DNA of 64,000 bases, from positions 25,985 to 89,984 of IMG/VR virus record IMGVR_UViG_3300020156_000025, one strand, 5' to 3'. Under the pieces are notes generated by a model. The model did no database searches and was not told the DNA's origin. It saw only the letters and a list, made by a program, of their open reading frames with translations. Source of the stretch: a virus. The translations under genes and the position numbers were made by a program. Positions 15,483 to 58,333 of the stretch are shown one piece after another; the first letter of the stretch is position 1, and every line of letters starts with the position of its first letter.

Positions 15483-16112
15483 ATGCCTGCGATCCAGACC
15501 CTCACGGGGGATGTCAATCTCCGCGCCGCTTCCGCCAAATGCCACGTGTGGCATGCGTCCGCTCCGGGAACCGCCACGTTCGGATTCGCGGAAGCGTTGC
15601 TCTTCGTCAACGCCCGCAACGGGAGGGGGGCGAGCACGCTGTCGATGCCCGATCCGCAGGGTTCGGTGCTTGGATTCTCCCCGGACATCGGGGGGAAGAT
15701 GACCGCCGCCGCGTATGACGTTTGCGAAGGGGAAATCCTGAAACTCATATCATCCGTGCGTTCGGGGCCGATGGCGGTGCACCAGTGCGCGACCATGTTC
15801 CTGCGGGTGCGGGCCAACGCCGCGGTGCAGCGGGTGGACATGCCGCTCTTGAACGATCCGTCGTGCAGGTTTACCGGGGGCTTCATCCAAGGACCTTTCG
15901 ACGTGCTGACGCCCGAGCAGGTGGACGCGCTGGAAGTCAAGGTGCCCGAGGCGTTCCGCCGCCTGATGATGCCGGGGCCGATGACGGAGCGGCTGTTCCG
16001 TGTCACTGTCCTGCAAGAGGCGAAGGCGGAGGTGGTGGCCGTGACCATGCGCGACGGGAAACAGGTGCAGGTGGAGACCGCCGTGCGCCGCCGCAAGCTC
16101 CGTCTCGACTGA
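15483..16112 (+). CDS. Hypothetical protein with C-terminal RRRKLRLD tag
   Basis: ORF between AAA ATPase and DUF1257 gene. Confidence 0.65.
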   Translation: MPAIQTLTGDVNLRAASAKCHVWHASAPGTATFGFAEALLFVNARNGRGASTLSMPDPQGSVLGFSPDIGGKMTAAAYDVCEGEILKLISSVRSGPMAVHQCATMFLRVRANAAVQRVDMPLLNDPSCRFTGGFIQGPFDVLTPEQVDALEVKVPEAFRRLMMPGPMTERLFRVTVLQEAKAEVVAVTMRDGKQVQVETAVRRRKLRLD

Positions 16113-16158
16113 GGACCGATTTTCAACCGTAACCAAACAATAACCAGAGCCGACACTT

Positions 16159-16650
16159 ATGAGCCATACCACATCGATCAAAACCGTGGCGATCAAAAGC
16201 ATCACCGCCGTGCGCGCCGCGGTGGAGGAGCTGAACCGCAAGGGCATCCGCTGCGAATTGCGGGAAAACTCCGTGCCGCGCATGTATTACCCGAACCAGC
16301 TACAGATGCACAAGGGGCGCAAGAACGAGATCGCGGATGCCGTGATCCATCTTCCGGGTTCGCGGTATGACGTGGCGCTGCTCAAGCAGGAGGACGGCAG
16401 CTACGAATGCGTGTTCGACGATTGGCAGAAGGAGGTGGCGAAGGTGCTGGGGCAGCCGTTCAAGGGCACCACGGAGCACTGGAGCGGAAACCGCCCGGAC
16501 ACCGAGCAGACGTTGCATTCGGTGGGGAAATTCTTGCAGGAATACTCGGTGTGCGCCGCGGTGGAAGCGGCGACGATGGCCGGGTATTCGGTGCTCGGGC
16601 ATTCGACCGATGCCAACGGGTGCGTGCAACTGCAAATCTCCGTGGACTGA
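16159..16650 (+). CDS. DUF1257 (Ycf35-like) protein
   Basis: MSHTTSIKT start, YDVALLKQEDGSYECVFDDW, QEYS...GY, ends in beta strand; typical partner of Ycf46 ATPases. Confidence 0.75.
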   Translation: MSHTTSIKTVAIKSITAVRAAVEELNRKGIRCELRENSVPRMYYPNQLQMHKGRKNEIADAVIHLPGSRYDVALLKQEDGSYECVFDDWQKEVAKVLGQPFKGTTEHWSGNRPDTEQTLHSVGKFLQEYSVCAAVEAATMAGYSVLGHSTDANGCVQLQISVD

Positions 16651-16700
16651 AACCCGCCCGCCCTTGACTCCCGCCCTCTCATCTTCCGATCCGAATTCTC

Positions 16701-16898
16701 ATGAAGACCATAACCGTTACCATTGATCAGGTAGGCCGCCCGAAAATCGAAGCAAACGGCTTCGCGGGTTGCGGATGCACGGACGCTACCCGTCCGATTG
16801 AAAACGCATTCTCCACCAATCCCGCCGACAAGGTGGTGGACGTGAAGCCCGAGATGCACCAAGGCGGGGAGATGGAACACCATCTCTACCAGCAGTAA
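16701..16898 (+). CDS. DUF2997 protein
   Basis: ITVTID..G...IEANGFAG.GC.DATRPIE...KPE. Confidence 0.8.
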   Translation: MKTITVTIDQVGRPKIEANGFAGCGCTDATRPIENAFSTNPADKVVDVKPEMHQGGEMEHHLYQQ

Positions 16899-17035
16899 CC
16901 CTTTCTCGCCCGGCCCCCCGGAGACAACACAGTGAACGCGGGGAGGGGTAACACCCTCCAGAACCCCCCGGAATCCCCCTCCCCGCTTCACCCTTCCCTT
17001 TCCCTTTTCCTTTCCACACCAACCGCCAAACCACC

Positions 17036-17407
17036 ATGAACACACAGCTTATCACGATCGCCCCGGACGGATCGATTTCCGGACTCGACTTCAAACGCAA
17101 GGGTCTCGACCTGCGACAATTCGGACACGCCGCGACGCGCCGCATCTCGGAGGTGGAGTGGGATGAGGAGCGCCAGAAATGGCGGGTGGTGTTCCTGATG
17201 GGGGGATGGGCCGGTGACGTGGCCACCGCGGAACATTGCGTGCGGGTGGGGTTGCCGCTGCCGGGGTCCGCAACGCTGGCGGACGGGGCGGTCAAGCCAA
17301 AGAACATGCTCATGTTCACCGATTATGAAGACGCGGTGGCATTTGAAATCACGATTGTGCAGGCCGCGCGCCTGTCCGGGAATGCCGCCCTTGTAGGGAA
17401 CGCCTGA
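17036..17407 (+). CDS. Hypothetical protein associated with the AAA/DUF1257/DUF2997 locus
   Basis: ITIAPDGSI...LDLRQFG..RRISEVEWD...W. Confidence 0.6.
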   Translation: MNTQLITIAPDGSISGLDFKRKGLDLRQFGHAATRRISEVEWDEERQKWRVVFLMGGWAGDVATAEHCVRVGLPLPGSATLADGAVKPKNMLMFTDYEDAVAFEITIVQAARLSGNAALVGNA

Positions 17408-17433
17408 ACTTCACCCTGAACCACATTAATCCG

Positions 17434-17622
17434 ATGAGTCCTGAACGATTTCTTACCTGCCTGAACCTGCTTATCTTCGCCGCTGCGGGGGCTACCTTGG
17501 TCTTTTTTATCCGTGATGCGAACGCGCTCGCGAGGGTGAGTCCGGAAGCGGGAAAAGCCGTGTGGTCCTTGTTCTGGTTCATGATTGCGGTTGCCAATCT
17601 TCCCTCCTACCCGCGCCGATGA
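17434..17622 (+). CDS. Small two-TM membrane protein
   Basis: Two hydrophobic segments. Confidence 0.5.
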   Translation: MSPERFLTCLNLLIFAAAGATLVFFIRDANALARVSPEAGKAVWSLFWFMIAVANLPSYPRR

Positions 17623-17993
17623 AAACGCACCTGATTCATTTCGTTCCGGAAATCGACCTGTCCTTGACCCATGCCGAAATGGCCCTGCTGTGGGCGTCGG
17701 CAAACGTTCATCCCGCCGCAAGGGAACACGCCGGGTTCTTCGGGCACATGCTGATCCGGCAGAAGGACGGGGGTGAGGCGTGCGAGCACCGGCTGACACA
17801 GGCTCAGGTGACGCTGTTGATCGAGGTGCTGGAAGGGCCTAAACTGCATGCCGACGAGGAAACCCTGAATGATCTGCACCGGCTTAAAATCGACCTTTAC
17901 GGGGCGCTGGAGGCGATGGCCGCAATGGAGGGGACGATTCCCGCCGTGGAGGCTGCACCGCCTGCGACCGACTCCTCCACCCGGAAGGGGTAA
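17619..17993 (+). CDS. Hypothetical protein
   Basis: ATGA-coupled ORF. Confidence 0.55.
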   Translation: MKTHLIHFVPEIDLSLTHAEMALLWASANVHPAAREHAGFFGHMLIRQKDGGEACEHRLTQAQVTLLIEVLEGPKLHADEETLNDLHRLKIDLYGALEAMAAMEGTIPAVEAAPPATDSSTRKG

Positions 17994-18055
17994 GAACAAC
18001 CGTTCCGGGAAACATTGCACTGACAACCGACCGAATATCAACCGACCGAACCACC

Positions 18056-18547: not shown

Positions 18548-18594
18548 GGATTTCCCGCCGGGTGCTTGGCGGTGCCCGGAGGGGGTTGACAGTG

Positions 18595-28237: not shown

Positions 28238-28621
28238 ATGTCCGACGAACACCCAACCGAAGCCGTCCGCGCCATGATCCGGGGCGTTTTCGGAAGCTGC
28301 GAAGACTTCGAAGACCGTCCTTGCGCGGTGGCGGTGGTGGAGTTGCCCGGGGGTGCGGTGATGGTGGCGATGGAGGACAACGGGTGCGTGGTGGTGCCCG
28401 ATTTGCGGGAGTTGTCGGTGCTGCGGCTGGTCGCGGCTGGATTCGACTACTTCACCGCGGAGAGACTTTCGGTGTGGCTGGCCGGGACAACTTTGCAAAC
28501 CGTGCAAAGCTCCGGACCGGAGACACCGTTGATGGAAAGCAGCGAGGCTGCATCGAACCGCCCCGGAGGGGCATTGAAAGAAGAAACAAACCAAACGACA
28601 CAGGACAATGGCCAAGAATAA
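28238..28621 (+). CDS. Hypothetical protein
   Basis: ORF after promoter. Confidence 0.5.
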   Translation: MSDEHPTEAVRAMIRGVFGSCEDFEDRPCAVAVVELPGGAVMVAMEDNGCVVVPDLRELSVLRLVAAGFDYFTAERLSVWLAGTTLQTVQSSGPETPLMESSEAASNRPGGALKEETNQTTQDNGQE

Positions 28622-29780
28622 CAGGGACGACGAAGAGTGGGGGCAGACCGGACAAGCCGCCCTTGAACGCATGAACCGTGCCGACGAGGAACATGCCAAG
28701 CGGAAGGCCCGCGGTTTCATGCCGCTGCGCTTCTGGTTGAGCAACACGCCGGAGGCGATCAAGAAGGGGGACAACGAGTGCGAGCTGGTGATCCTCGACG
28801 ATTGCGTGGTCTCGGACAAGCCGGGGAAGGGAGCCATCCTGATCCGGGAGCACAACCTGCAAGGGCCGGACGGGAAGTGGGGGAATCACGAATCGTGCGC
28901 CGCCGATTTCGACGATTGCCCGATTTGCGCCAAGACGGGCAAGGAGGGATATCACATCCTGTTCCTGACCGTGCTGGTGTTGAAGCCGTGGGAATCGAAG
29001 GACAAGAAGAGATCGTCGGAGTATTCCAAGATGCTGCTGCCGATTTTCCTCAGCCAACGGGACACGTTCCTCGACCTCCAGAAACATGCGCTCAAGAGCA
29101 GGGGCACGATGCGGGGCATGAAAATCCGCTTGCGCCGCGGGAAGGACTCCAAGCGGTCGATCGGGGAACCGGTGCTTATGGAGGACGGGAACATGTTCAA
29201 GGTCATGTCGGAGAAGTGGCTGGAGAAATGGTTCGGCCACGAGGCGGTGATTTCCCGCGACGGCAAGACCGTGCTCAAGGAGGCGAACGAGGACATCCAG
29301 CCGTTCGACTACAAGAAATTGTTCCCGAAGCCCGACGTGGAGGAGTTGCGCGAGCGATTCGGGGGCAAGACCCGGGCAGGCTCGAAGCGTGAGTTCGAGG
29401 AGGAGTTCCCGGACCAGCAGACGAACCGCGTGGGTGGTCGCCGCCGTTTCGACGATGACGACGATGACCCGGAGGACGACATTCCGGGGAACGCCGGGGC
29501 TGCGGCCAAGAAGCAGGGCGCGAAGGGGCGCTTTGCGGACGACGAGGACGAGCCCGAGGAAACGCCTGCCGCCGGGAGGGCCGGTAAGGCGGACGCGGAC
29601 GAGGGGGACGATGATCCGCCCGTGCGCTCGCGCCGCCCGTCAACGGCGAGGGAGGAAACCGGGGATGCGCCGGTCCGTTCCCGCCGGACGGGGGGCACAG
29701 CCGCTGCATCCGCTGCGAAAGAACCGATCGGGGACGATGATCCGGACGACCCGGACGCCGACGATGGCTGGAACGACTGA
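28608..29780 (+). CDS. Single-stranded DNA-binding protein (gp32-like, Zn site, acidic tail)
   Basis: RFWL...ILDD...EH...C.....CPIC core; long acidic disordered tail ending DDGWND. Confidence 0.7.
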   Translation: MAKNNRDDEEWGQTGQAALERMNRADEEHAKRKARGFMPLRFWLSNTPEAIKKGDNECELVILDDCVVSDKPGKGAILIREHNLQGPDGKWGNHESCAADFDDCPICAKTGKEGYHILFLTVLVLKPWESKDKKRSSEYSKMLLPIFLSQRDTFLDLQKHALKSRGTMRGMKIRLRRGKDSKRSIGEPVLMEDGNMFKVMSEKWLEKWFGHEAVISRDGKTVLKEANEDIQPFDYKKLFPKPDVEELRERFGGKTRAGSKREFEEEFPDQQTNRVGGRRRFDDDDDDPEDDIPGNAGAAAKKQGAKGRFADDEDEPEETPAAGRAGKADADEGDDDPPVRSRRPSTAREETGDAPVRSRRTGGTAAASAAKEPIGDDDPDDPDADDGWND

Positions 29781-32377: not shown

Positions 32378-33673
32378 ATGCCTGCGAAGAAAGCCGCCAA
32401 GAAGACCGCGACGAAACAAGCCAAGGGGAACGACGCGCCCGTCCGTTCCCGCACCGGAGGGGGAGGGGAGCTAGCCCGACTGAGGACGGAGATCAATGCC
32501 AAGAAAGGACCGGACACGGTGATGACGGGGAACACCCTGCCGCCCGCGCGACATATCCCGACCGGATCGTTCCTGTTGGACCTTGCCACGATGGGGGGAA
32601 TTCCGGAGCGGCAGGCGACGATGCTTTATGGTTACGAATCGTCGGGGAAGACCGCGGTGCTGATGCGGAACATTGCCGAGTTCCAGCGAAAATATCCGAA
32701 GCAGGTCGCGGTGCTGATCGATGCGGAGCACATGTATGATCCGCTGTGGGCGGCGCAGTTGGGGGTGGACACGTCCCGATTGGAGGTAGCTAGGCCGGAG
32801 ACCGGGGAGGAGGCGGTGGACGTGTTCATCGCCATGATGGAGTGTCTGGAGGTGGGGTATATTGCGCTGGATTCCGTGCCTACGTGCGTGCCGCAGGTGG
32901 TGGTGGAGAGGTCGGCGGAAGACGACACGATGGCTTCCCTTGCCCGGTTGATGGGTAAGTTCTGCTCCAAGGTGTTGACGACGTGGGGTAAGGAGCGCAA
33001 GCGGGGGCACTATGTCACGGTGGCGTATATCAACCAGTTCCGGTCCAAGGTGGGGCTGGTGTTCGGGGACCCGCGAACGCTGCCCGGTGGCAGGCAGATC
33101 AATCACTTGCCGACGACCAAGATCGAACTCAAGGGGGACGAGGTGATGGGGGAGGACTCGGTGGGAAACAACGTCTCGCTCCACAACAAAATGACATTCA
33201 AGGTGACGAAGGCCAAGAACGGCTGTTCGATCCGCTCCGGGGAGGTGATGATGGTCATGTCGCCCGACAACGAGCACGGGATGCCGACGGGGGCTTACGA
33301 CGATTACAAGACCGTGTTGGTGTATGCGCAACGCTTCGGGCTGTTGACGGGGGCGGGGGCGAACTACCGGTTGGACCTGCTGGGATATGCCAAGATGAAG
33401 CTGGGGGACATCGAGCGCGCGCTGCGGCGCGACCAAGGGAAATTCGACCGGCTCAAGGCGTGCATGATCGTCATGCAACGCGTGTCCAAAAACCTGCCGC
33501 CCTTGCCGCCCGACAATTTTCTCGTGGGACCGGGAGTGACGGTGCCTGCCGAATTCATTGCCGTCGTGGTGAGGGACCACGAGCGTAAGAAAAACGCCGA
33601 ATCGCCTCCCGCGCCCGCGGTGGAGGAAGATGACGGCTTCGACGATAGCGACGAAGAGGACGAAGCGGCTTGA
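32378..33673 (+). CDS. recA: RecA/UvsX recombinase
   Basis: IPTGSFLLD, YGYESSGKT, IDAEH, LDSV, INQFR.K.G..FGDP...PGG. Confidence 0.92.
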   Translation: MPAKKAAKKTATKQAKGNDAPVRSRTGGGGELARLRTEINAKKGPDTVMTGNTLPPARHIPTGSFLLDLATMGGIPERQATMLYGYESSGKTAVLMRNIAEFQRKYPKQVAVLIDAEHMYDPLWAAQLGVDTSRLEVARPETGEEAVDVFIAMMECLEVGYIALDSVPTCVPQVVVERSAEDDTMASLARLMGKFCSKVLTTWGKERKRGHYVTVAYINQFRSKVGLVFGDPRTLPGGRQINHLPTTKIELKGDEVMGEDSVGNNVSLHNKMTFKVTKAKNGCSIRSGEVMMVMSPDNEHGMPTGAYDDYKTVLVYAQRFGLLTGAGANYRLDLLGYAKMKLGDIERALRRDQGKFDRLKACMIVMQRVSKNLPPLPPDNFLVGPGVTVPAEFIAVVVRDHERKKNAESPPAPAVEEDDGFDDSDEEDEAA

Positions 33674-33696: not shown

Positions 33697-34296
33697 GTGC
33701 CTGAGAGAGACATTCCCTTGTCGCAGCTATTCGAGCTGGTGGAGAAGCCCAAGAAGGGTATTTGCGTGGTCAAATACTGCCGGAAGAAGCGTGCGGTCAC
33801 GAGCACACTGTGCGCGATGCACAAGATGCATGCGTTCCGGATGCGCAACCCGTTGCTGGCGACCTACCTCCGGTTGCGGGACGGGGCCAAGCGCCGGGGG
33901 CTGGAGTTCGGATTGACGCGCGAACAGTTCCGCGAGCTGTGCGAGATCACCGGGTATCTGGAGGGGAAAGGAACGAGCCCGTTGTCCATGACGCTCGACC
34001 GGATCGATGCGCGGAGGGGATATGTGCCGGGAAACTTGCAGGTGATGACGTTGCGGGACAACGTGGCGAAGGGGAACCGGGAGAGGGAAATCACGTTCCG
34101 GGACGGGATACGGATTCCGTGGACGGAGATTTCGGTGCAGGCCGAACTGTTCAATGCCCGGGAAGTCGAACGGAGGAAAAGCTACGTGGTGTATTTCCGG
34201 GGGGAGGAGCGAACCGCCCCGCCCTTGCCTGACATGCAGGGGAGACATTGGCTGGACGATGATGCCGGTGATGATACAGGGAACGAACCGTTTTGA
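33697..34296 (+). CDS. HNH-like endonuclease
   Basis: AKRRGLEFGLT...TLDRIDARRGYVPGNLQ....DN. Confidence 0.7.
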   Translation: MPERDIPLSQLFELVEKPKKGICVVKYCRKKRAVTSTLCAMHKMHAFRMRNPLLATYLRLRDGAKRRGLEFGLTREQFRELCEITGYLEGKGTSPLSMTLDRIDARRGYVPGNLQVMTLRDNVAKGNREREITFRDGIRIPWTEISVQAELFNAREVERRKSYVVYFRGEERTAPPLPDMQGRHWLDDDAGDDTGNEPF

Positions 34297-35746: not shown

Positions 35747-36340
35747 ATGAACAGCCAACCAGTGAGGAGCAGGAGATCGCCGCGGGGGATAAAAACGATG
35801 GGCATAGACCCGTCCTTGAACGGCACCGCGGTGGTGGCGTGGCAGAAGGAGCTTGACCCGGAACTCTACGGACCCGCGGGGGCGGTGCTGGAGATGCATC
35901 TGACTCCCAAGCTCACGGGCATGGAGAGACTGGTGTGGCTGAGGGAGCAAATGCTCGCCATTATCGAGGGGGCGAGACCGGACGTGATCGTGCTTGAGGA
36001 CTATGCGCTGGGGATAAGGGGGAAGGGACTGATCGGGTCGCTGGAGTTCGGCGGGGTGCTCAGGTTGCTGTTGCACGAATGGTCCCGGATGAGGAACGTT
36101 CCGGTGTGGAAGATACCCCCGGCCAACCTTAAACAATTCACGACGGGGAAAGGGAATGCGGATAAGCCGCAGATGGTGATGGCGTGCTATAAGCGATGGA
36201 GCTACGATCCGTTGGGGTCGAGTCACGATTTGGCCGACGCCTATGCGCTGGCGCGGGTGGGACACGCGCTGGTCGATCCCTCCGTGAAAACAACACAGGT
36301 GGAACGCTCCGCGCTGTCAAAGGCGGTGCGTCTCGTGTAA
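35747..36340 (+). CDS. ruvC: RuvC-like Holliday junction resolvase
   Basis: GIDPSLNGTA, VLEDY, LKQFTTGKGNADK, DLADAYALA. Confidence 0.88.
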   Translation: MNSQPVRSRRSPRGIKTMGIDPSLNGTAVVAWQKELDPELYGPAGAVLEMHLTPKLTGMERLVWLREQMLAIIEGARPDVIVLEDYALGIRGKGLIGSLEFGGVLRLLLHEWSRMRNVPVWKIPPANLKQFTTGKGNADKPQMVMACYKRWSYDPLGSSHDLADAYALARVGHALVDPSVKTTQVERSALSKAVRLV

Positions 36341-39330: not shown

Positions 39331-40128
39331 ATGCTATTGGAAAAGGGAAAGACGGAACTTGCTTCCGACGGATCGCTGATCGCGAGTGAGGAGGACCGGG
39401 ACGAATTGATGAGGCTGGCCGACAGGCTGAAACAGATGCTGGATACCTCGAACAGCACGCCCCTTGCCGCGGAACTGGCCTCGACGTTGACACAGGGGCC
39501 GGTGGGAACGTGGGTCCGGCATCCGCTGTGCGTGACGCTCTACATTCCCGGGATGGAACCGATGCTGAACGCCCGGCTTGAGAACGTGCGGGAACTGGTG
39601 GACGGTTATTGGGCGAAGGGCAGATGGTCCAATTACGTGTATGCCCATGAACGTCCGTTCCGATTGACCGCCCTGTTGCGGGTGATCCATGACGGATCGC
39701 CGAAGGACAGGGAATTGTGGGAGCTGCTGTCGTGGACGTGGAGGGATTCGGAGCATCCGTGGGTCAACCGCCGGATGTGGGAAACGCTTTGGACGATGGA
39801 TCGTCCGGGAATCCAGTTCGCGACCGCTTACCGTGACCGCAAGGAACTGGCCCGTTTGCACGCTTTGCAAAAGGTGACGGTTTACCGGGGAACCCCGGGG
39901 TCGAAGGGCCGGAAGGGGATTTCATGGACGCTGGACAAGGAGCGCGCGAGGTGGTTTTCCCTGCGCTTCGCCACGGCCAAGGAACGTCCGAGGGTGTGGA
40001 CTCTGGAGGTGCCCGGGGAGATGATCCTTGCCTATCTGACCGACCGGAACGAGGACGAGGTGGTGATCGATCCCCGGTATCTGAACGGGATTCATTCCCG
40101 GAAATTCAAGGAGGCGGGAGATGAATAG
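39331..40128 (+). CDS. Putative ADP-ribosyltransferase-fold protein (R-S-E type)
   Basis: VTVYRG, GISWTLD...ARWF, NEDEVVI. Confidence 0.55.
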   Translation: MLLEKGKTELASDGSLIASEEDRDELMRLADRLKQMLDTSNSTPLAAELASTLTQGPVGTWVRHPLCVTLYIPGMEPMLNARLENVRELVDGYWAKGRWSNYVYAHERPFRLTALLRVIHDGSPKDRELWELLSWTWRDSEHPWVNRRMWETLWTMDRPGIQFATAYRDRKELARLHALQKVTVYRGTPGSKGRKGISWTLDKERARWFSLRFATAKERPRVWTLEVPGEMILAYLTDRNEDEVVIDPRYLNGIHSRKFKEAGDE

Positions 40129-40834
40129 CAACGTGTATATCGATACCCGCTATGCGGTCCGCAGGGGGGCATGGTGGATGCTGGTAAGGGTGCGCGGAAC
40201 CTGCGTGCTTCGCGCGATACACCGCACGGAGGCCGACGCATGGGAGGTGTGGGACTTGGAGATTCCGCTGAATGATAGAGACCGGGAATATTCGAGCGCA
40301 CGCCTGTCCGTGCTGGACGACGTGCATGCGGGGGATGTCACGGTGGCATTCGAGGCAACCCTTTCGTGCCGGTTTGAAATCATAACGGGGGTCAACTTGC
40401 GGATGCGCCTGACCCCCCGTGAAACGATACGGGTGCACGTGCTTATGCCTGTGATCGAGACTGTCCGGCAGGAGGGTAGGAGAAAGGAATTTGCTAAGGC
40501 AATGCTCTCGCCCCGGGAATCTCCGCGCGCGCTCGTGGAGGAGCATTGGACGGTCAAGCTGAACTTTCTGGCGTCTTACCCCCACGAACGCAGGCTTTCG
40601 ACTCATGACAGCGGGGTTGCGAGGGAGACACTCGGAGAGCTGACGGAAGCCGATGCCCGGTTGAGCTGGGTGTGCCATGCGCTGCCCAGCATTGATCCGG
40701 ACAAGCTGCTCGTGGATCTGGACGGGAGCGCGGAGAGGGAACGACTCAGGGTTCAGGCCGAACATGATCGTCAGGTCGAGGAGGCGTTCCGGGCCTCCCT
40801 GTCCGAATCCCGCCGGAGGGAAATCCGTCTCTGA
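40121..40834 (+). CDS. Hypothetical protein with C-terminal RRREIRL tag
   Basis: Coupled ORF. Confidence 0.6.
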   Translation: MNSNVYIDTRYAVRRGAWWMLVRVRGTCVLRAIHRTEADAWEVWDLEIPLNDRDREYSSARLSVLDDVHAGDVTVAFEATLSCRFEIITGVNLRMRLTPRETIRVHVLMPVIETVRQEGRRKEFAKAMLSPRESPRALVEEHWTVKLNFLASYPHERRLSTHDSGVARETLGELTEADARLSWVCHALPSIDPDKLLVDLDGSAERERLRVQAEHDRQVEEAFRASLSESRRREIRL

Positions 40835-40837: not shown

Positions 40838-40995
40838 GTGTAACCGCCGCTAGGGGAGAATTCTGGGTAATCCCCGGAATTTTTTGTTTTTGCGTATCAA
40901 CGAGTTACGACGGAAATCCGGTAAATTCGTGCAAACTTTGCAAAATCGACTTGCTAAACAATACCCGGTGCCGCATGCTGTCCCCCGTCAACCGA
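40838..40995 (+). promoter_or_regulatory. Composite early-promoter module, copy 3
   Basis: Same CGTGTAAC / TCAACGAGTTAC / TGCA box / TTGCTA-N17-CATGCT arrangement. Confidence 0.75.
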
Positions 40996-42184: not shown

Positions 42185-42601
42185 ATGAGCTATCTGCAAA
42201 CCATTCTGGACCTGATCCGTTCGGGTGCCGTTGACGAATTTCTGGACCTGATCGGAAGGGACGTGCTGGACCGGAAGAAATACACCGCGCGCCAACGCAC
42301 CTTGCCTCAGACGCTGGAGGAATTCCCTGTGGGGTGCACCGTCCGGTTCAAGCCCTCGGTCCGTCCGCGCTACCTTGCCGGGCATACGGCTACGGTGACG
42401 GGTCACGATGGTGCCCGCAAGGTCCGCCTTGCCCCGATCGCAATGGGTCGGTTCGAGGGAAGGGGGGAGGTGCGTTGTCCGGTGAACCTGATCGAACGGC
42501 TGACACCGCTTGAGCCCGCGCCGCAACCGCAGGCGCAGAACGCCCCGGTCCGCTCGCGCAAACCCGCCCCGGGCGCACGGAGGAAAATCCGTCTCGACTG
42601 A
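42185..42601 (+). CDS. Hypothetical SH3-like protein carrying both PVRSRK and C-terminal RRKIRLD
   Basis: FPVGCTVRF...ATVTG..KVRL beta-barrel pattern. Confidence 0.65.
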   Translation: MSYLQTILDLIRSGAVDEFLDLIGRDVLDRKKYTARQRTLPQTLEEFPVGCTVRFKPSVRPRYLAGHTATVTGHDGARKVRLAPIAMGRFEGRGEVRCPVNLIERLTPLEPAPQPQAQNAPVRSRKPAPGARRKIRLD

Positions 42602-45426: not shown

Positions 45427-46097
45427 ACGGGGAGCAATGGCTGTTCGAGGTGCACCAGGACCTGCCCTTGACTGGGACTGGTAGGGTCCGGGCCTACACG
45501 GGGAACGTGATCGAGGAGGTCGCGTGCGCGTGCCTGCGCTGGGAACGGCAGCGGATCGACGGGAACCGCAAGGTGTGCGTGGACGCCGTGGACCGTGACA
45601 AGCAACCGGTGGAGATCAAAGCGGTGTCCATGTCGAAAGGTGTCCCGGCTTCGGTGATCTACGATTTCCGCATCCGCAAGGAGCTGGAGGCATATCCGGA
45701 CATGGACTATGCGTTCGTGCTGCACCGGGCGAAGCAGGCCGGGTCGTTGCGCAAGCTGCGGGAAATGATCGCGTCGCAACCGCTGGAGGTGATCCGGGTG
45801 AGGGCGTGGATCGTGTGGCAGATGCTGGAACACCTGCCCTTGCGGAAAATAGTCCGGGAAGCCCCGGTAAAGGGGGAGAGAACCGGATACAAGAGGACGG
45901 GTTACCGGGAGGGATACCGGTGTCTGGACGTGCGCGAATTTCTCAAGAACCTGTCACCGTGGGAATATACCGGAGGGGTGACGCTACAGGGATTGGAATA
46001 TACGGCCAGAATCGCCCGGCACGGGACAGCCTTGTCGGAACCGCTCCGCAGCCGTGTCCGCCGGGAGGCACAAAACATTGCACGAATTACACGCTAA
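45423..46097 (+). CDS. Putative PD-(D/E)XK nuclease-fold protein
   Basis: GNVIEE...VDA......VEIKA. Confidence 0.45.
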   Translation: MNGEQWLFEVHQDLPLTGTGRVRAYTGNVIEEVACACLRWERQRIDGNRKVCVDAVDRDKQPVEIKAVSMSKGVPASVIYDFRIRKELEAYPDMDYAFVLHRAKQAGSLRKLREMIASQPLEVIRVRAWIVWQMLEHLPLRKIVREAPVKGERTGYKRTGYREGYRCLDVREFLKNLSPWEYTGGVTLQGLEYTARIARHGTALSEPLRSRVRREAQNIARITR

Positions 46098-46098
46098 C

Positions 46099-46671
46099 AT
46101 GAATCCGGTAATACCTTCGTTCAACCTTGCGCCCGGTGCCCGGATGATGATTAACGGCCAGATGTGCGTGTTACAGGAATACACGATCCAGAGGGACGGG
46201 GGGAGGGCCAGTGACTTTGACACGCTGGAGCTTAGATTCGTGATGCTGAGTGAGCCTGTCGCCGCGCCGTCCCGTGTGACCGAGACCGGTAGGATAAGTG
46301 TCGAATGTGACCTTTCTGCTTGGGAACAGGCAATGGCCGAGAGGCTGGCCGGAGCATCAAGGGTCCCGTCCGCCGCTGAACCCGCAAGATACGTGCCGGG
46401 GTTCCGTTATTTCCGGGACGAGATCGACGGGGAAGAATTCAAGATGCCTCCGGACGGCGGCTTGGGGTATCGGAGCGAGCCGGGCGGGTGGTGGATTGCT
46501 TCTGCCGTGATGCGTATAGACAATTTCAGGGACGGAAAAAGATACTGGAGCAATGGAGGGATGCAGCAGGTGACGAGCTGCCCTGAATTTTTTCCCTTGG
46601 AATCGCCCGGACCGGACAAGCCCAAAGACCCGTTGCCCGTGTCGCCGAAGAGGGTCATCCGCTTGGATTGA
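46099..46671 (+). CDS. Hypothetical protein with C-terminal KRVIRLD tag
   Basis: ORF in gene run. Confidence 0.6.
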   Translation: MNPVIPSFNLAPGARMMINGQMCVLQEYTIQRDGGRASDFDTLELRFVMLSEPVAAPSRVTETGRISVECDLSAWEQAMAERLAGASRVPSAAEPARYVPGFRYFRDEIDGEEFKMPPDGGLGYRSEPGGWWIASAVMRIDNFRDGKRYWSNGGMQQVTSCPEFFPLESPGPDKPKDPLPVSPKRVIRLD

Positions 46672-46759
46672 CACCGGAAGGATTTTGCAAACCTTGCAAA
46701 ACCGGTTTTTGTTTTGCTCAAAACTTGAGCATGCCCTGCGGGTATGCCATGCTGACGAC

Positions 46760-47404
46760 ATGCCGCCGCTGCCATCCCCCGCCGAATTCCCCTATCTGTG
46801 CTCCGATTTGGTCGCATGGGAGAAGCTCGGTTCCAGCTATGAAGTAATCCGCGTCTTCGCGGTTGTTACGAGGCTGTGCAGGGATATGACGGATGACATG
46901 CAAACACCGGCGGGATGGACCGGTTGGCACCAAATGGTCACGGCCCTATGGACAGGAGGACGAACACCCTTGTTGTCCAAGTTGGCCGATATAGGCCGAG
47001 CATCCGGTCCGTGGGAGATGAACGTCAGGCTGCTACGCGAATTGGGGACTCCTCGAATGGTGGCAGTAGCCGGGTCTTCCCCCGAGATGGGTCTAGGGCG
47101 GGCGTATTCGCGTCGAATCGATCTTGAAAGCGGCTGGCGCAGACTCGGATATTCTCCGGTTGATGAGGTCACGGGGCCGGTGATGGAAGTGATCCGGGAG
47201 TTGCAGGAGTTGGAATGGGATCTGATCAAAGACTCGACCTATACCGCGCTGCACGACATGTCGTGGAATGCCATCGATACTCTCTGGCATCGGTATTCGG
47301 ACCAATACGCCGGAGCGTGGATTCAGGTATCCCGGACGACGAAGCGCCAGCCCGTGCCCGCCGTCGATCCGTTGCAGCGCCGCCGCATCATCCGTCTCGA
47401 CTGA
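46760..47404 (+). CDS. Hypothetical protein with C-terminal RRRIIRLD tag
   Basis: ORF after TTGAGC-N17-CATGCT promoter-like site. Confidence 0.6.
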   Translation: MPPLPSPAEFPYLCSDLVAWEKLGSSYEVIRVFAVVTRLCRDMTDDMQTPAGWTGWHQMVTALWTGGRTPLLSKLADIGRASGPWEMNVRLLRELGTPRMVAVAGSSPEMGLGRAYSRRIDLESGWRRLGYSPVDEVTGPVMEVIRELQELEWDLIKDSTYTALHDMSWNAIDTLWHRYSDQYAGAWIQVSRTTKRQPVPAVDPLQRRRIIRLD

Positions 47405-49553: not shown

Positions 49554-50702
49554 ATGACAAGACCGAAATTGGCACTGCGGGTGGGTGCGACATATGAGTG
49601 CCGCGACGGCGGGACCGCCCGGGTGATATGCGTGGACATGGCGGGTGCCTCTCCGCGATACTGCATCGCGTTGAAGGCGGTCCGCGACAAGAACGGGGAC
49701 GTGACGGAGCATGTGTTTCACTATGCGCCCGATGGCACTACCGGGGATATCGAACAGGCGCGCGATCTGATCCGGGAGATAGAGCCGGTATCGCCGTTCC
49801 CGGGATCGAACCGGAGGGTGCGGCTGGGATTGGACGAAGGGCTCATGCAACCGCCCCCGCAGGAAGGTAGCAGGGAGGCGATGGTGGTGCATTTCCGCGG
49901 GCTCGGGTGGCAGGAAATCCGCTTGCCTTCCGAAAGGGTCGTGTGGGTGAGCACGGAGGAGCAGGTTTTCACGGAATCCAAAATGTGGGAGGTTTACCGG
50001 GAATTTCTGGCTCGGCAGAGACCGGAGCCGCAGGTCCGGGACAAGACACCCCCGGCTCATCGGGTGGAAAGGTTCAGTGCGGCGCAGACACTTCCGACGG
50101 ACTGGACAATGGTTTTAATTGATATGCATTTGGGCAGGCGTATCCGTGTCATTAACCGTTCTCGTAATGGGTGGGGCACCGTATGGGTGTTTGATGCGAT
50201 GATTTCGCGCCCGGACGGGGACTGGGACCATCATCTGATCGAGGAAAGGAGCAGCGAAGAGGCAATGGCGTTCGCCCGGGCGCTGATTAAAACCCAGGTG
50301 CTTAAGGAATTGATAGGGGTGGCGGACGCTTTGGACGCGGAGGCAGAGCCGGATTCCGTCGCTTTGCCGCAGGCGACGACAACGTTGGGACGGAACGAGG
50401 CGCTCCCCTTTAACGGAGTGTCGGTTCACGGGCAAACTTACCGGGGCATTCGCTTCGTGGTGTCCCTGCGTGATTCGGTGAGTTGCCCAGCCGGAGGACA
50501 TGATGTGCTTATCCGCCGCCGGGAGGCGGATGATTGGCATTATTACGCTTTGGAGTATGCGTCCCGACATTACGCGATCGGTCAGGCTCTGCGGATAATC
50601 CGGGAATCGCCGCTGTGGCGCTTCGAGTGTGACGTGGAATGGCCGACCGGGGAGGACTATGGTGATGGGGACGGGGATGATGACGGCTACAATCCTTTTT
50701 GA
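49554..50702 (+). CDS. Mosaic hypothetical protein
   Basis: N-terminal YECRDG..ARVICVD phage domain; acidic C-terminus ending NPF. Confidence 0.6.
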   Translation: MTRPKLALRVGATYECRDGGTARVICVDMAGASPRYCIALKAVRDKNGDVTEHVFHYAPDGTTGDIEQARDLIREIEPVSPFPGSNRRVRLGLDEGLMQPPPQEGSREAMVVHFRGLGWQEIRLPSERVVWVSTEEQVFTESKMWEVYREFLARQRPEPQVRDKTPPAHRVERFSAAQTLPTDWTMVLIDMHLGRRIRVINRSRNGWGTVWVFDAMISRPDGDWDHHLIEERSSEEAMAFARALIKTQVLKELIGVADALDAEAEPDSVALPQATTTLGRNEALPFNGVSVHGQTYRGIRFVVSLRDSVSCPAGGHDVLIRRREADDWHYYALEYASRHYAIGQALRIIRESPLWRFECDVEWPTGEDYGDGDGDDDGYNPF

Positions 50703-53441: not shown

Positions 53442-53504
53442 ATTTGCACACTGTGCAAAACAGAAACCGGAAGACAAAACTTCCGTCCGCGGGGGAGCTG
53501 TGCC

Positions 53505-53876: not shown

Positions 53877-53906
53877 TAATCAGGAACCTGAACCGACACC
53901 TAATCC

Positions 53907-55801: not shown

Positions 55802-55831
55802 AGGACACTCCGAATACCTGATACCGAGATC

Positions 55832-56647
55832 ATGACGATGACCAATACCTACCCCCGCGTGCTGGAGTGGCTGGAGCAGACCTACGCCCAACGCTCGGAT
55901 GAGCGGCAGAAATCGATGGGCCTCGCCTACATGGAGGCGGAGACGCATGATCTTGCCCGGGAAATATCCCGCCTGCTACTGCGTGAGACCATCGTGCCGG
56001 GGGTGTGGCATTGCCGCACCTGCGGACTCGTGCAATACCGGAGCGTGCTGAATCCCGAGACCGGGGCTTGCGGGGCGAACCGGGAAACATTGCAGGAGCC
56101 GTGCCCGAACGACGGGGATGTCATGTTCCCGATGACGTGGAGGGAGGAACTGGAACGCACGGAACGACTGCTGACGCGCGTGATGCCCGTCCTTCCCGTG
56201 CTGCGCGCTGCTAGGGACTATCTGGAGAACGTGACGCATCACGAATTCAAGACCCGGCACGGATTTGAATGGGGAGAGGTGCTGCCGAGAATTAACCGGG
56301 TCTTGCAGGGAGTCGAGTCCCCGGCGGAACACCCCATCGACCGTGCCATCCGGCACGAGGGGGCGGAAGAGTGGCGACCCGAACCCGGCCTTGCCCGGGT
56401 GGTCTGTGCCGCGATGCGTTTCCGGGAAACGGGGAGGATCATTTGCGGGGCGCGGCACTGGGACCCGATCATGCGCCAGCAGAAGCGGGAGGACGAGCCG
56501 TGGGATGGATGGGAGGACGGATTCATCGACCAATTCAACCAGTTCCTGACCCGTGCGGAGGCGTGGGACATTGCCGTCAGGCAGGGGCAGATCCACCGCA
56601 AGCTCGATACCCCGGAGGGAACCCTCTATAGCGAGCACCTTTACTGA
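55832..56647 (+). CDS. Mosaic hypothetical protein
   Basis: CRTC...CPND Zn ribbon; C-terminal VCAA...GARH...GFIDQ...LYSE phage domain. Confidence 0.65.
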   Translation: MTMTNTYPRVLEWLEQTYAQRSDERQKSMGLAYMEAETHDLAREISRLLLRETIVPGVWHCRTCGLVQYRSVLNPETGACGANRETLQEPCPNDGDVMFPMTWREELERTERLLTRVMPVLPVLRAARDYLENVTHHEFKTRHGFEWGEVLPRINRVLQGVESPAEHPIDRAIRHEGAEEWRPEPGLARVVCAAMRFRETGRIICGARHWDPIMRQQKREDEPWDGWEDGFIDQFNQFLTRAEAWDIAVRQGQIHRKLDTPEGTLYSEHLY

Positions 56648-56654
56648 GCACCCC

Positions 56655-57176
56655 ATGAAAGCAAGAGACATGCTATTGACCGATCTGGACGGGATTTTCA
56701 CGGCGAACGTGATGAACCCCGCTCCGGGGGAGGAGTTCGAGCGATGGGTCCGCAGGACCCGGGTTGCACGCTCCGCGATGGTCCCGCTTTACTTGCCGAG
56801 GGTCAAACCGCGACCGCCCGCACGGGCACCGGGGTGGGGGATCGTGTCGGGACGGGTGAAAGAGGACGAGGCGTTGACGCTCCGCTGGATCAAAACGAGA
56901 TTCTGGCACAACCCGCCGTGTGTCGTTCATGCGGCGCGGGAGGCACACTTGCATTCGTCCCCGCAATACAAGGTGGGCCGGTTGGTGTTTCATGCCCATG
57001 ATCCGGAAACGGAACGGGTCACCTACGTGGAATCGTCGCCGCGGGAGGCGAAGGAAATCCGCGCCCTGTTGAAGCGATGCAAGGAGCCGGAAGCGGCCAA
57101 GCTCTCGGTGGTGACATTCCGGGAGGCTCTGGAGAGCGGACTGTGGTGGAAATACTTCACGTTTACCGAAGAATGA
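56655..57176 (+). CDS. Hypothetical protein
   Basis: ORF in gene run. Confidence 0.5.
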   Translation: MKARDMLLTDLDGIFTANVMNPAPGEEFERWVRRTRVARSAMVPLYLPRVKPRPPARAPGWGIVSGRVKEDEALTLRWIKTRFWHNPPCVVHAAREAHLHSSPQYKVGRLVFHAHDPETERVTYVESSPREAKEIRALLKRCKEPEAAKLSVVTFREALESGLWWKYFTFTEE

Positions 57177-57367
57177 GTGAACACGCCAGATGGGTCCATT
57201 TGCTGAGCGCGGGGGAGTGGCTGGGGAAGCCTTTGCTTGCGGAATGGTTGGAAACGAAACACCCTGCCGTCCGCCCTTCCCTGCGCGCCATCGTGGAAGC
57301 CGCGTGGAGGAACGGTGCCCGCCGGAAACCCCGCTGATTTTGCAAACTGTTCAAAACCGATACCGAT

Positions 57368-57694
57368 ATGAGAGTTACCGAGGATGAACTTGCTGCCATA
57401 CTGCGTGCCCATGCATCGCAGGAAAATGCCGACGGGGAACCGTTCGACACCATGATGGCGCTGGCCGACGTGCTGACGGGAAAGAGGGAAGAACTGCCGC
57501 CGCGGGGGGTGTTCGATTTTACCCGCCTGTCGCCCATGCTGCGCTTGCGCCTGTGCGACCTGCTGACCCGGGAACAGAACGAGATCGGGCGGAACCTGCT
57601 GGACTATCCGGAAACCGATACCAAGCGGGAAATGCAGGGATGGCTAGATGCCGCGACCGAGCTGCGCCGGGCGCTGGACTTGAAACCGGATTGA
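57368..57694 (+). CDS. Hypothetical protein
   Basis: ORF after TGCA box. Confidence 0.55.
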   Translation: MRVTEDELAAILRAHASQENADGEPFDTMMALADVLTGKREELPPRGVFDFTRLSPMLRLRLCDLLTREQNEIGRNLLDYPETDTKREMQGWLDAATELRRALDLKPD

Positions 57695-57695
57695 C

Positions 57696-57977
57696 ATGAC
57701 CCCGACGCTGCGAGCTTACGCGCTGGAACGCTACCCGGGGGAGCTGCACCCGGACGCACTGAGCGCCGAGATCGTGCTCTACTTGAAAGGGCAAGGGGAG
57801 GAAGCGCTGAACACCGCCCTTGCCGCCACGAATGATTGCACGGAGCTGAACCCGGAGGACCCCCGCCCTTGCGGGAAATGCAACGGGTGTATCTCGCGTT
57901 GGAACGCGCTGTTGACCGTTGCGGAGGTGGAGGAATTCCCGGAACATTGGTATCGAATTGCACCCCCTTGGAGATGA
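57696..57977 (+). CDS. Hypothetical Cys-containing protein
   Basis: PCGKCNGC. Confidence 0.5.
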   Translation: MTPTLRAYALERYPGELHPDALSAEIVLYLKGQGEEALNTALAATNDCTELNPEDPRPCGKCNGCISRWNALLTVAEVEEFPEHWYRIAPPWR

Positions 57978-58333
57978 ACGAAGGAGACACCTTGATCGTG
58001 AGCCGGAACTCGCCGCATTATGCCGAGGTCCGAAGTGCGGCGCTTGTCGCGTTGAACGAAAACGAAGACCGCGAGGATAGGAAAAGGGCGGTCCGGGCTT
58101 TGATGGACCGCTATCCTGAAATTTTCGTCCGGCAGGACGACCTGATGGCCATGATAGACACCGAGCATCCGGAGGGGCTTTCGATCCTGCTCGAAAGTAA
58201 GGAGGGGAGGGAACGGAGAGAGAAACAGGAGCGGGACGCGCAGGTCTACAAGACCATGTTTTTCGAGCCTCCGCCGGTTGCCCCGGGCACCCGCAAAATC
58301 CGCTTGGATCGGACGCCGGACAAAACTTGCTAA
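57974..58333 (+). CDS. Hypothetical protein with near-terminal RKIRLD
   Basis: ATGA-coupled ORF. Confidence 0.55.
   Translation: MNEGDTLIVSRNSPHYAEVRSAALVALNENEDREDRKRAVRALMDRYPEIFVRQDDLMAMIDTEHPEGLSILLESKEGRERREKQERDAQVYKTMFFEPPPVAPGTRKIRLDRTPDKTC

What the first reader, a model, noticed from the sequence alone, without database searches (positions are those of the whole stretch)
16085..58333. Second shared tag: C-terminal basic-(I/L)RL(D)-stop on six unrelated early proteins
Seen: RRRKLRLD* (16112), RRREIRL* (40834), RRKIRLD* (42601), KRVIRLD* (46671), RRRIIRLD* (47404) and RKIRLD plus 7 aa (58333). The proteins are otherwise non-homologous and codons vary (CTC CGT CTC GAC; ATC CGC TTG GAT). 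The first tagged gene lies inside the AAA+/DUF1257/DUF2997 block, and the ATPase itself ends in VRRRRGGNL. The 42185 protein carries both this tag and PVRSRK. Established: AAA+ machines often recognise C-terminal tags (ssrA/ClpX). Inference: a substrate or docking tag for the phage Ycf46-like ATPase system, or a degron/beta-addition motif for a host partner.
Basis: partly seen in the sequence, partly recalled or inferred. Interest (0 to 1): 0.82.

Follow-up and report, generated by a model that had tools for sequence, protein, structure and literature searches.

The report
Shared docking tail of phage AAA+ module
Several unrelated proteins of this uncultured phage end in the same short arginine-rich peptide, which is the signature tail of the protein encoded next to a Cdc48-like ATPase, so it is most likely an address that brings them all to one still unidentified docking site.

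Summary
Six + strand ORFs end in basic-(I/L)RL(D), five at the stop and one 7 residues before it.

It is a protein-level motif. It is the hallmark tail of the uncharacterised ~210-aa family encoded between the AAA+ ATPase and DUF1257. Of 147 full-length representatives, 138 have at least 3 K/R in the last 12 residues and 80 fit [KR]2+-Phi-x-Phi with at most 2 trailing residues. The ATPase family has a looser version (31 of 37 distinct tails).

In 21 other phages with this module, ATPase and neighbour removed, 48 of 2368 predicted proteins carry the motif against 12.75 expected. In 5 control phages without the module it is 1 of 390. Tails resemble their own genome's neighbour-protein tail more than those of other genomes (permutation p=0.0004).

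Best reading: a co-evolving docking or recognition tail for the Cdc48/VAT-like module. The receptor is unknown and binding is untested.

Caveats: "early" is untested. In this phage the codons are unusually uniform (CGT CTC), unlike in relatives.

Earlier AI notes of this scan describe the same kind of tail on other DNA. My seven literature searches found nothing on it.

The parts
13658..15307 (+). Cdc48/VAT-like single-ring AAA+ ATPase (549 aa) with a ~250-aa acidic N-terminal region. It ends VRRRRGGNL*.
   Evidence: PF00004 at 1.6e-28. Best PDB matches are VCP-like ATPase, Cdc48 and p97. phrog_8638 at 8.7e-140. Tail read. Homologues' tails.
15483..16112 (+). g046, 209 aa, a member of an uncharacterised family always found just after the ATPase. 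Its tail RRRKLRLD* lies at 16086-16112.
   Evidence: Synteny. The family has 329 representatives at E<=1e-3. Tails. No Pfam, PDB or NCBIfam hit.
16159..16650 (+). DUF1257-like protein (163 aa), a constant module member.
   Evidence: PF06868 at 21.8 bits against a cut-off of 22.2. Orthologues in relatives are annotated DUF1257. Synteny.
16701..16898 (+). DUF2997 protein (65 aa), acidic, a constant module member.
   Evidence: PF11211 at 27.7 bits against a cut-off of 24.1. Net charge.
17036..17407 (+). g049 (123 aa), a fifth conserved module gene of unknown function.
   Evidence: Orthologues in HJ05, RHph_I4 and JP1. Same position in 12 of 13 modules.
40121..40834 (+). Orphan, 237 aa. Tag RRREIRL* at 40811-40834.
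   Evidence: no homologue in 22 other phage genomes.
42185..42601 (+). Orphan, 138 aa. Pro-rich linker with PVRSRK, then tag RRKIRLD* at 42578-42601.
46054..46671 (+). Orphan, start uncertain (46054, 46078 or 46393). Tag KRVIRLD* at 46648-46671.
   Evidence: The GC3 frame plot supports this frame from about 46035. Also.
46685..47404 (+). Orphan, start uncertain (46685 or 47180). Tag RRRIIRLD* at 47378-47404.
   Evidence: The tail DNA is 25/28 identical to that of g046.
57836..58333 (+). Orphan, start uncertain (57836, 57869 or 57974). Tag RKIRLD at 58292-58309, followed by 7 residues. Its codons are those of the 46671 tag, with CGG where that one has TGA.
7100..7945 (+). GT8 glycosyltransferase ending REIRLT*. 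A weak variant with one basic residue before the core. It may not belong to the set.
7973..10324 (+). 783-aa protein ending KLREVRLVLD*. A weak variant.
35798..36340 (+). RuvC-like resolvase ending KAVRLV*. A weak variant that also uses CGT CTC.

Best explanation
The tag is a short linear peptide motif acting at the protein level. It has two to four Arg/Lys, then hydrophobic-x-hydrophobic, at or within a few residues of the C-terminus, usually after a linker somewhat rich in disorder-promoting residues.

It is the family signature of the protein encoded between the Cdc48/VAT-like AAA+ ATPase and DUF1257. A looser form ends the ATPase itself.

I infer that it is an address. By electrostatics plus beta-strand addition it docks its bearer onto one receptor site that co-evolves in each phage. 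Because the ATPase and its neighbour both carry it, the receptor is most likely either a third constant member of the module (DUF2997, DUF1257 or g049) or the acidic N-terminal ring of the ATPase acting in trans.

The five phage-specific orphan proteins that carry the same address would then be recruited to this machine as clients to be unfolded or remodelled, or as adaptors.

Shown: the motif, its family-wide conservation, its enrichment, and its within-genome co-variation.
Inferred: docking, the receptor, and what happens to the bearer.
For: 1. Family conservation. The profile search finds 329 representatives. Of 147 full-length ones, 138 have at least 3 K/R in the last 12 residues and 80 fit motif M. 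The commonest tail is RRRRALDL*.
2. Strict synteny ATPase -> this protein -> DUF1257 -> DUF2997 in 12 of 13 modules by my own gene calls, and in most of 28 further viral loci.
3. ATPase tails are of the same type and match their neighbour locally. Examples are RRRRIGQ/RPRRVIGS, PRRRRLDT/RRRRSLDI and RPRRRRMEQ/KRRRAFEL. 31 of 37 distinct ATPase tails have [KR]2+ x0-2 Phi in the last 16 residues.
4. Enrichment with a motif fixed beforehand. In 13 new genomes, 35 of 1389 proteins match against 7.58 expected, p=3.8e-13. In all 21 test genomes with ATPase and neighbour removed, 48 of 2368 match against 12.75 expected, p=3.6e-14, with 16 of 21 genomes positive. In controls without the module, 1 of 390 matches against 1.92 expected. 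Fisher p=0.0049.
5. Co-variation. Non-module tails match their own genome's neighbour-protein tail at 1.84 of 5 positions against 1.25 under permutation, p=0.0004 with this phage excluded. G008 has six proteins ending xLE[LFI], G007 has five ending [IL][DE]M, and G014 has INLED twice.
6. In relatives the same peptide is written with different codons and all three stop codons.
7. The ATPase is of the substrate-threading Cdc48/VAT/p97 type.
8. Precedent: mycobacterial Mpa (an AAA+) and the non-ATPase PafE/Bpa share a C-terminal QYL motif that docks into one pocket of the 20S ring (PMC5515868, passages read).
Against:
- A search for charge-compensating columns in the ATPase, DUF1257, DUF2997 and g049 gave four leads with 11 modules. 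None remained at p<0.01 with 17 modules, so no receptor is indicated.
- Module presence and phylogeny are confounded, because all positive genomes are relatives.
- Five of the 21 test genomes have no non-module tagged protein (G009, G010 and G011 show no match at all). SM1 and Corndog, which carry the ATPase, show no enrichment (3 against 1.14 expected).
- Only 80 of 147 family members fit the strict motif.
- In this phage the tag DNA is more uniform than protein selection requires.
- The motif was defined post hoc on this phage and widened once (middle residue D/E/N/Q/S/T added after seeing G001-G004) before being frozen for the last 13 genomes.
- Gene calls come from my own simple caller.
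Confidence: 0.6

Rival explanations
1. Host-directed degron or docking peptide. The basic-hydrophobic tail would be read by a conserved host machine, for example ClpX, either as a C motif-2-like degron or like the SspB C-terminal XB peptide that binds the ClpX N-domain. The phage would use it to time the destruction of its own proteins or to compete with host substrates.
For: ClpX C motif-2 is given as R/H-x-K/R-K-Phi, modelled on the C-terminus of phage Mu transposase. The last 10 residues of SspB bind the ClpX N-domain (PMC3983244, passages read). g046 holds RRRKL, which fits that pattern. The motif occurs in phages of different hosts (Aeromonas, Rhizobium, Agrobacterium), as a conserved host target would allow.
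Against: Only 1 of the 6 tags fits R/H-x-K/R-K-Phi, and there it is not the extreme C-terminus. Each phage has its own concerted dialect (IRLD, V[KR]L, LEL, I[DE]M, INLED), which one conserved host site does not predict. The commonest family tail has an acidic middle residue (53 of 80), unlike C motif-2. The motif was not found above expectation in 5 control phages without the module.
Confidence: 0.13
2. Generic nucleic-acid-binding or condensate-forming Arg-rich tails. The tails would simply tether many phage proteins to DNA or RNA (or to acidic tails of other phage proteins) near the replication module, with no specific receptor.
For: The module sits at the head of the replication genes. A second Arg-rich peptide (PVRSR) is reported on replication proteins of this genome (first-reader notes; PVRSRK seen). 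SM1-type relatives end replication proteins in plain R-rich tails. The phage also has several strongly acidic tails.
Against: The hydrophobic-x-hydrophobic core and its position at the extreme C-terminus are conserved (62 of 80 strict matches have no trailing residue). They co-vary within genomes, which non-specific charge binding does not need. The bearers in this phage are orphans, not known DNA enzymes.
Confidence: 0.12
3. A DNA- or RNA-level element at gene ends (for example a regulatory site, a translation-termination context or a recombination cassette) that only incidentally codes for IRLD.
For: In this phage, four tags plus the RuvC-like tail use the rare pair CGT CTC (7 of 177 RL pairs in the proteome; Fisher p=3.7e-6). 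The tail DNA is 25/28, 15/15 and 17/18 identical between gene pairs. All five terminal tags stop with TGA.
Against: Two of six tags use different codons for the same peptide. The 15-mer occurs only in frame at the three gene ends and never on the other strand in the 89,984-base genome. Flanks downstream are unrelated. In relatives the same peptides use free codons and TGA, TAA and TAG. The family tail is conserved across 147 proteins that are at most 50% identical to one another. The codon uniformity is better read as recent copying of a tail cassette between genes, on top of protein-level function.
Confidence: 0.05

Closest known systems
Shared C-terminal docking tails of proteasome activators (QYL of mycobacterial Mpa and PafE/Bpa; HbYX of PAN/Rpt is recalled, not checked here)
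   Same: An AAA+ unfoldase and a non-ATPase partner end in the same short C-terminal motif, which docks them onto one receptor (PMC5515868, passages read). Here the ATPase, its neighbour and further proteins share a tail.
   Different: The motif is Arg-rich plus Phi-x-Phi, with no Tyr. No proteasome-like ring or peptidase turned up among the roughly 35 window proteins I put through the family scans (no dedicated search was made). The receptor is unknown. The tail is also borne by many fast-evolving orphans and varies as a per-phage dialect.
ClpX recognition signals: C motif-2 (MuA-like, R/H-x-K/R-K-Phi) and the SspB XB peptide
   Same: Short basic-hydrophobic C-terminal peptides, some on phage proteins, read by an AAA+ unfoldase or its N-domain (PMC3983244, passages read).
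   Different: 1 of 6 tags fits the consensus. The family's commonest tail has an acidic middle residue. The ATPase here is phage-encoded and Cdc48/VAT-like, not ClpX. No peptidase partner is known.
Ycf46 (AAA) / Ycf35 (DUF1257) / DUF2997 gene set of cyanobacteria and plastids
   Same: The same three families stand in one block.
   Different: Here the set is on a phage at the head of its replication genes, with two extra conserved genes (g046, g049). Nothing on a shared tail appeared in the listings of my searches. I opened none of those papers.
p97/Cdc48 cofactor-binding short motifs
   Same: A Cdc48-type ATPase gathers many unrelated cofactors through short linear motifs. The sequence relation of the ATPase is shown. 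The motif concept is recalled and appears only in titles and abstracts listed.
   Different: Those motifs bind the p97 N-domain or its C-terminal tail, and none resembles RRRxPhixPhi. Here the ATPase carries the motif itself.

Membership tests
Ycf46-type AAA+ / DUF1257 / DUF2997 module | Classic-clade AAA domain (PF00004) ATPase | tested here: met
   PF00004 at 100.2 bits against a cut-off of 21.2. Cdc48/VAT/p97 are the best solved relatives.
Ycf46-type AAA+ / DUF1257 / DUF2997 module | DUF1257 (PF06868) protein adjacent | tested here: inconclusive
   21.8 bits, just under the 22.2 cut-off. The orthologue in RHph_I4 is annotated DUF1257 and is 44% identical.
Ycf46-type AAA+ / DUF1257 / DUF2997 module | DUF2997 (PF11211) protein adjacent | tested here: met
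   27.7 bits against a cut-off of 24.1.
g046 family (unnamed; the protein between the ATPase and DUF1257) | About 210 aa, sited directly after the ATPase, with a basic C-terminal tail ending Phi-x-Phi | tested here: met
ClpX C motif-2 degron | R/H-x-K/R-K-Phi at the C-terminus (PMC3983244) | tested here: not met
   Only RRRKL of g046 fits, and three residues follow it. The other five tags do not fit.
ClpX C motif-2 degron | ClpX-dependent degradation | not testable with these tools
   Needs a stability assay in a clpX mutant.
Proteasome-activator docking tails (QYL / HbYX) | The same C-terminal motif on the ATPase and on non-ATPase partners | tested here: met
   ATPase and neighbour tails are of one type and locally matched.
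Proteasome-activator docking tails (QYL / HbYX) | Penultimate Tyr in the motif | tested here: not met
   No Tyr in any of the six tags. The middle residue is D/E/K/R/S/T/N/Q in all 80 strict family tails, by the motif's definition.
Proteasome-activator docking tails (QYL / HbYX) | A ring-shaped peptidase receptor with docking pockets | not tested
   No systematic search for a peptidase in the phage or its unknown host was made.
ssrA-type C-terminal degron | Non-polar C-terminus of the LAA type | tested here: not met
   Tags end RL or RLD.

The most novel reading that the evidence does not exclude
A tag-and-machine system. A phage-encoded Cdc48-like unfoldase module (ATPase, g046, DUF1257, DUF2997, g049) uses a co-evolving C-terminal address, RRR-x-Phi-x-Phi, with a private dialect in each phage. 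It gathers phage-specific orphan proteins as clients or adaptors. New proteins join by acquiring a ~15-28-nt tail cassette, as the near-identical tail DNA in this phage suggests.
Probability: 0.4. Interest if true: 0.82.

Novelty: new variant of a known kind. Interest (0 to 1): 0.72.

Why it matters
The Ycf46/DUF1257/DUF2997 gene set is widespread, and none of my searches turned up a described mechanism for it. A shared, co-evolving terminal peptide gives a concrete handle on it.

It predicts which proteins work with the machine in each genome, here five orphans with no other clue to function. It also gives a simple experiment: tail-GFP pull-downs and tail swaps between dialects, in cultured relatives such as Rhizobium phages RHph_I4 and L338C or Aeromonas phage HJ05.

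If the tail is a recruitment signal for a phage unfoldase, it would be a virus-encoded analogue of the degron and adaptor logic of cellular AAA+ machines. It would also offer orthogonal tag-receptor pairs for use as tools.

Tried and rejected
1. Exact 15-nt tag DNA in IMG/VR gave 25 contigs with one match each. In none is it the end of a protein with the basic cluster in a related phage. Judged chance level and not pursued.

2. Single-protein locus search with the ATPase in viral contigs found nothing. The word-index protein search for g046 found only itself and one relative. The full profile search was needed.

3. g046 function: no Pfam hit for any of 54 members, no PDB sequence relative, no NCBIfam hit. 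The ESM Atlas gave only low-score, unnamed look-alikes and a poor model with pLDDT 0.28.

4. Receptor hunt by charge-swap columns: four leads with 11 modules, none at p<0.01 with 17 modules. Rejected as evidence. Net charges (ATPase N-region mean -9.8, DUF2997 mean -4.1, g046 mean +8.6) are only suggestive.

5. Pro-rich linker idea: proline alone is not enriched before tags (0.080 against 0.054, p=0.18). P/G/S/T/A/Q together is modestly enriched (0.44 against 0.37, p=0.003).

6. Orthologue test: only g046 among the tagged proteins has orthologues in six named relatives. By my count from the output, 39 of 54 non-module tagged proteins in 23 genomes have no homologue (E<=1e-5) in the other genomes. 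One small family is tagged in both genomes where it occurs (G003 and G008). Conservation of tags on orthologues could therefore hardly be tested.

7. Literature. None of these searches found the tail or a phage role of the module:
- DUF1257+DUF2997: 3 papers
- DUF1257+phage: 1 paper
- Ycf46+bacteriophage: 4 papers
- Ycf46+Ycf35: 17 plastid-genome papers
- vB_RleS_L338C: 3 papers
- phage-encoded/AAA+/unfoldase/C-terminal tail: 134 papers holding at least 3 of the 4 terms, 15 listed
- SspB/ClpX/XB peptide: 4 papers
For all but PMC3983244 and PMC5515868 I saw search listings only. Supplements were closed and not consulted.

8. No expression data were sought, so "early" stays untested.

Full report
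**What the window is.** The window is bases 25985-89984 of an 89,984-base IMG/VR phage record rated complete. It has about 63% G+C, and nearly all genes are on the + strand: 112 of 114 by my own codon-usage caller. The order of genes is:
- virion and glycosylation genes;
- a block of AAA+ ATPase, an unknown protein, DUF1257, DUF2997 and a small conserved gene (13658-17407);
- DnaB, PolA, primase, helicase, a RecA-like recombinase and a RuvC-like resolvase;
- about 25 kb of mostly orphan genes.

The nearest named phages by PolA and the ATPase are Aeromonas HJ05, Rhizobium L338C, P11VFA and RHph_I4, Agrobacterium JP1, the Rhodobacter RcTiptonus group and the Pseudomonas SM1 group, at 36-46% protein identity.

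**Observation.** All six quoted C-termini are there. A six-frame scan for [ILV]RL(D)-stop returns the five terminal tags, AVRL* at 6648 and one 26-aa minus-strand ORF. The sixth tag (58292-58309) is followed by seven residues. Its codons ATC CGC TTG GAT are those of the 46671 tag, with CGG where that one has TGA. I read this as a stop-loss extension, which is inference.

The six proteins have no Pfam or PHROG match and no similarity to each other outside the tag. Weaker variants end two glycosyltransferase-type proteins, a 783-aa protein and the RuvC-like protein.

- Four tags read (A/C)TC CGT CTC and two read ATC CGC TTG GAT.
- CGT is 9% of Arg codons and CTC is 17% of Leu codons.
- CGT CTC codes 7 of 177 Arg-Leu pairs, and 5 of those 7 are in tag-type tails (Fisher p=3.7e-6).
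- Tail DNA is 25/28, 15/15 and 17/18 identical between gene pairs, and nothing else is similar.

Against a nucleotide-level element:
- The 15-mer occurs three times in the genome, always in frame at a gene end and never on the other strand.
- Downstream flanks are unrelated.
- Two tags spell the same peptide differently.
- In relatives the equivalent peptides use free codons and all three stop codons.

I conclude that the function is at the protein level. The uniform DNA in this phage most simply reflects recent copying of a short tail cassette between genes. This remains unexplained and is entered in the notebook.

**The key result.** The first tagged gene (15483-16112, here g046) has homologues in the same position, directly after the ATPase, in every relative examined. 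They end the same way: RRAVKL* (Rhizobium), RNRKLKL* (HJ05), RRGRKITI* (RcTiptonus) and RKRRLRLS* (JP1).

A profile search of 1.84 billion representatives finds 329 family members at E<=1e-3. Of the 147 listed members of full length:
- 138 have at least 3 K/R in the last 12 residues.
- 80 fit the fixed motif M. M is Phi1 [ILVM], x [KRTDEQSN], Phi2 [ILVMF], with at least 2 K/R in the four residues before Phi1 and at most 2 residues after Phi2.
- 62 of those 80 have no trailing residue.
- The middle residue is D/E in 53 and K/R in 15. The commonest tail is RRRRALDL*.

The family has no Pfam, NCBIfam or PDB relative.

**The ATPase carries it too.** Homologues found through the ATPase's N-terminal region end in forms such as RPRRRSIKGLGN*, NRPRRRKIM*, TRRRRIGL* and RPVRRRRLN*. 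31 of 37 distinct tails have [KR]2+ x0-2 Phi within the last 16 residues, though only 6 fit strict M within 8 residues of the end.

In 28 viral loci the ATPase tail and the neighbour's tail are often of one local type: RRRRIGQ/RPRRVIGS, PRRRRLDT/RRRRSLDI, RPRRRRMEQ/KRRRAFEL and GGRKVELN/RKGRSIEM. The ATPase itself is of the Cdc48/VAT/p97 kind.

**Other proteins in other phages.** I first saw the same thing in RHph_I4. There, six proteins end [KR]..V[KR][LI]* against 0.64 expected. JP1 and HJ05 show looser forms.

After seeing G001-G004 I widened the middle residue once and then froze motif M. The counts are as follows.

| Set | Proteins with M | Expected | p |
|---|---|---|---|
| This phage | 5 of 115 | 0.66 | 5.9e-4 |
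| Eight relatives (includes their g046 homologues and one ATPase) | 28 of 1019 | 5.65 | 1.6e-11 |
| SM1 and Corndog (ATPase present, neighbour atypical or absent) | 3 of 234 | 1.14 | 0.11 |
| Five phages without the module (lambda, 16-3, D3112, phiKMV, vB_VcaS_HC) | 1 of 390 | 1.92 | 0.85 |
| Thirteen further IMG/VR genomes, fetched after the motif was frozen | 35 of 1389 | 7.58 | 3.8e-13 |
| All 21 test genomes, ATPase and g046 proteins removed | 48 of 2368 | 12.75 | 3.6e-14 |

In the last set, 16 of 21 genomes have at least one tagged protein and 12 have at least two. Against the controls, Fisher p=0.0049.

Three of the 13 new genomes (G009, G010, G011) show no match at all. Five of the 21 test genomes have no non-module tagged protein.

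**Dialects.** Within a genome the tails agree.
- G008 has six proteins ending RR-x-L-E-[LFI].
- G007 has five ending [IL]-[DE]-M(x).
- G014 has two ending INLED*.
- G019 has two ending IDL(x).
- This phage has IRL(D).

Non-module tails match their own genome's g046 tail at 1.84 of 5 positions, against 1.25 when g046 tails are permuted among genomes. The p-value is 0.0004 for 43 tails with this phage excluded. With it included, 0 of 5000 permutations reach the observed value.

Most bearers are fast-evolving orphans. By my count, 39 of 54 non-module tagged proteins have no homologue in the other 22 genomes. One small family is tagged in both genomes that have it.

**Mechanism.** Shown: a conserved, C-terminal, co-varying peptide shared by the ATPase, its neighbour and a changing set of other proteins.

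Inferred: it is a docking address for one receptor that co-evolves in each phage. Since the ATPase bears the tail itself, the receptor is either a third constant module member or the ATPase N-region in trans.

The ATPase N-terminal 250 residues and DUF2997 are net acidic (means -9.8 and -4.1 over 19 modules), while g046 is basic (+8.6). That is compatible with this reading but weak.

My attempt to find charge-compensating columns failed once more modules were added.

**Compared with what is known.** The closest working analogy is the shared C-terminal docking motif of proteasome activators. Mpa (an AAA+) and the non-ATPase PafE/Bpa both end in QYL and dock into the same pocket (PMC5515868, passages read). 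The present motif has no Tyr, and no peptidase ring is known here, so it is not a member of that class.

ClpX C motif-2 (R/H-x-K/R-K-Phi, modelled on phage Mu transposase) and the SspB XB peptide (PMC3983244, passages read) are also basic-hydrophobic C-terminal signals. Only one of the six tags fits that consensus. The per-phage dialects and the acidic middle residue of most family tails also argue against a single conserved host reader.

**Novelty and standing.** My seven literature searches found no description of this tail or of a phage role for the module. I saw listings only, apart from the two papers named above.

Earlier AI notes of this scan report shared terminal peptides around Ycf46-type AAA+/DUF1257/DUF2997 modules in other genomes: 60 notes hold all the search words, in at least 48 genomes. 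The eight I saw reach the same reading, with the receptor likewise unidentified. So the scan has found this kind of thing before on other DNA.

What this report adds:
- the g046 family as a constant bearer in this phage lineage;
- a frozen-motif enrichment test in 21 genomes, with controls that lack the module;
- a permutation test of co-variation;
- the odd codon uniformity in this phage.

**Limits.**
- Gene calls are from my own simple caller. C-termini depend only on which ORFs it picks.
- The motif was shaped on early data before being frozen.
- The test genomes are related to each other, and some may be close to one another (G009 and G011 have near-identical tails).
- The control set is only five phages.
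- Nothing here shows binding, unfolding or timing of expression.

Noticed in passing
window 16701-16898, and DUF2997 orthologues in L029-L137 loci: DUF2997 proteins of 19 modules end in an acidic, Gln-rich tail. Most have a terminal Trp (..QSW*..LTW*..QGW*). This is a second conserved tail type inside the same module.
   Followed up: partly
protein P0155 (ATPase homologue); window 42185-42601: One ATPase homologue ends RPVRRRRLN*, which joins a PVRxRR motif to the basic-Phi tail. The 42185 protein has PVRSRK 8 residues before its tag. The PVRSR tag of the sister finding and this tag may be two parts of one ancestral tail.
   Followed up: no
window 33697-34296, 49632-50702, 28608-29780, 32378-33673: Several proteins end in strongly acidic tails..DDTGNEPF*..DDDGYNPF*..DADDGWND*..DSDEEDEAA*. 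From recall, the first two resemble SSB-type acidic tips. They could be counterparts of the basic tails.
   Followed up: no
window ~40850-40890 and ~46690-46710: A G+C-rich hairpin followed by a T-run lies just after the 40834 stop. A TTTGCAAACCTTGCAAAA box lies just after the 46671 stop. Agrobacterium phage JP1 has TCTTGCAAACGTTTGCAAAA right after the stop of its g046 homologue.
   Followed up: no
window 16098-16109, 40823-40831, 42587-42598, 47390-47401, 36326-36334: The rare codon pair CGT CTC for Arg-Leu is concentrated in tag-type tails: 5 of its 7 uses in the proteome. Relatives do not show this.
   Followed up: partly
Pseudomonas phage SM1 (L043-L047): SM1 orthologues of PolA, the helicase and an SSB-like protein end in plain Arg-rich tails (..SRIRRSR*..SPRLRRR*..EALRRR*) without the Phi-x-Phi core.
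   Followed up: no
window 60939-63371: An 810-aa protein has a QueC (queuosine biosynthesis) domain at residues 526-731.
   Followed up: no
window 4918-7945: GT25/sulfotransferase fusion and GT8 genes among the virion genes end in weak tag variants (AVRL*, REIRLT*).
   Followed up: partly
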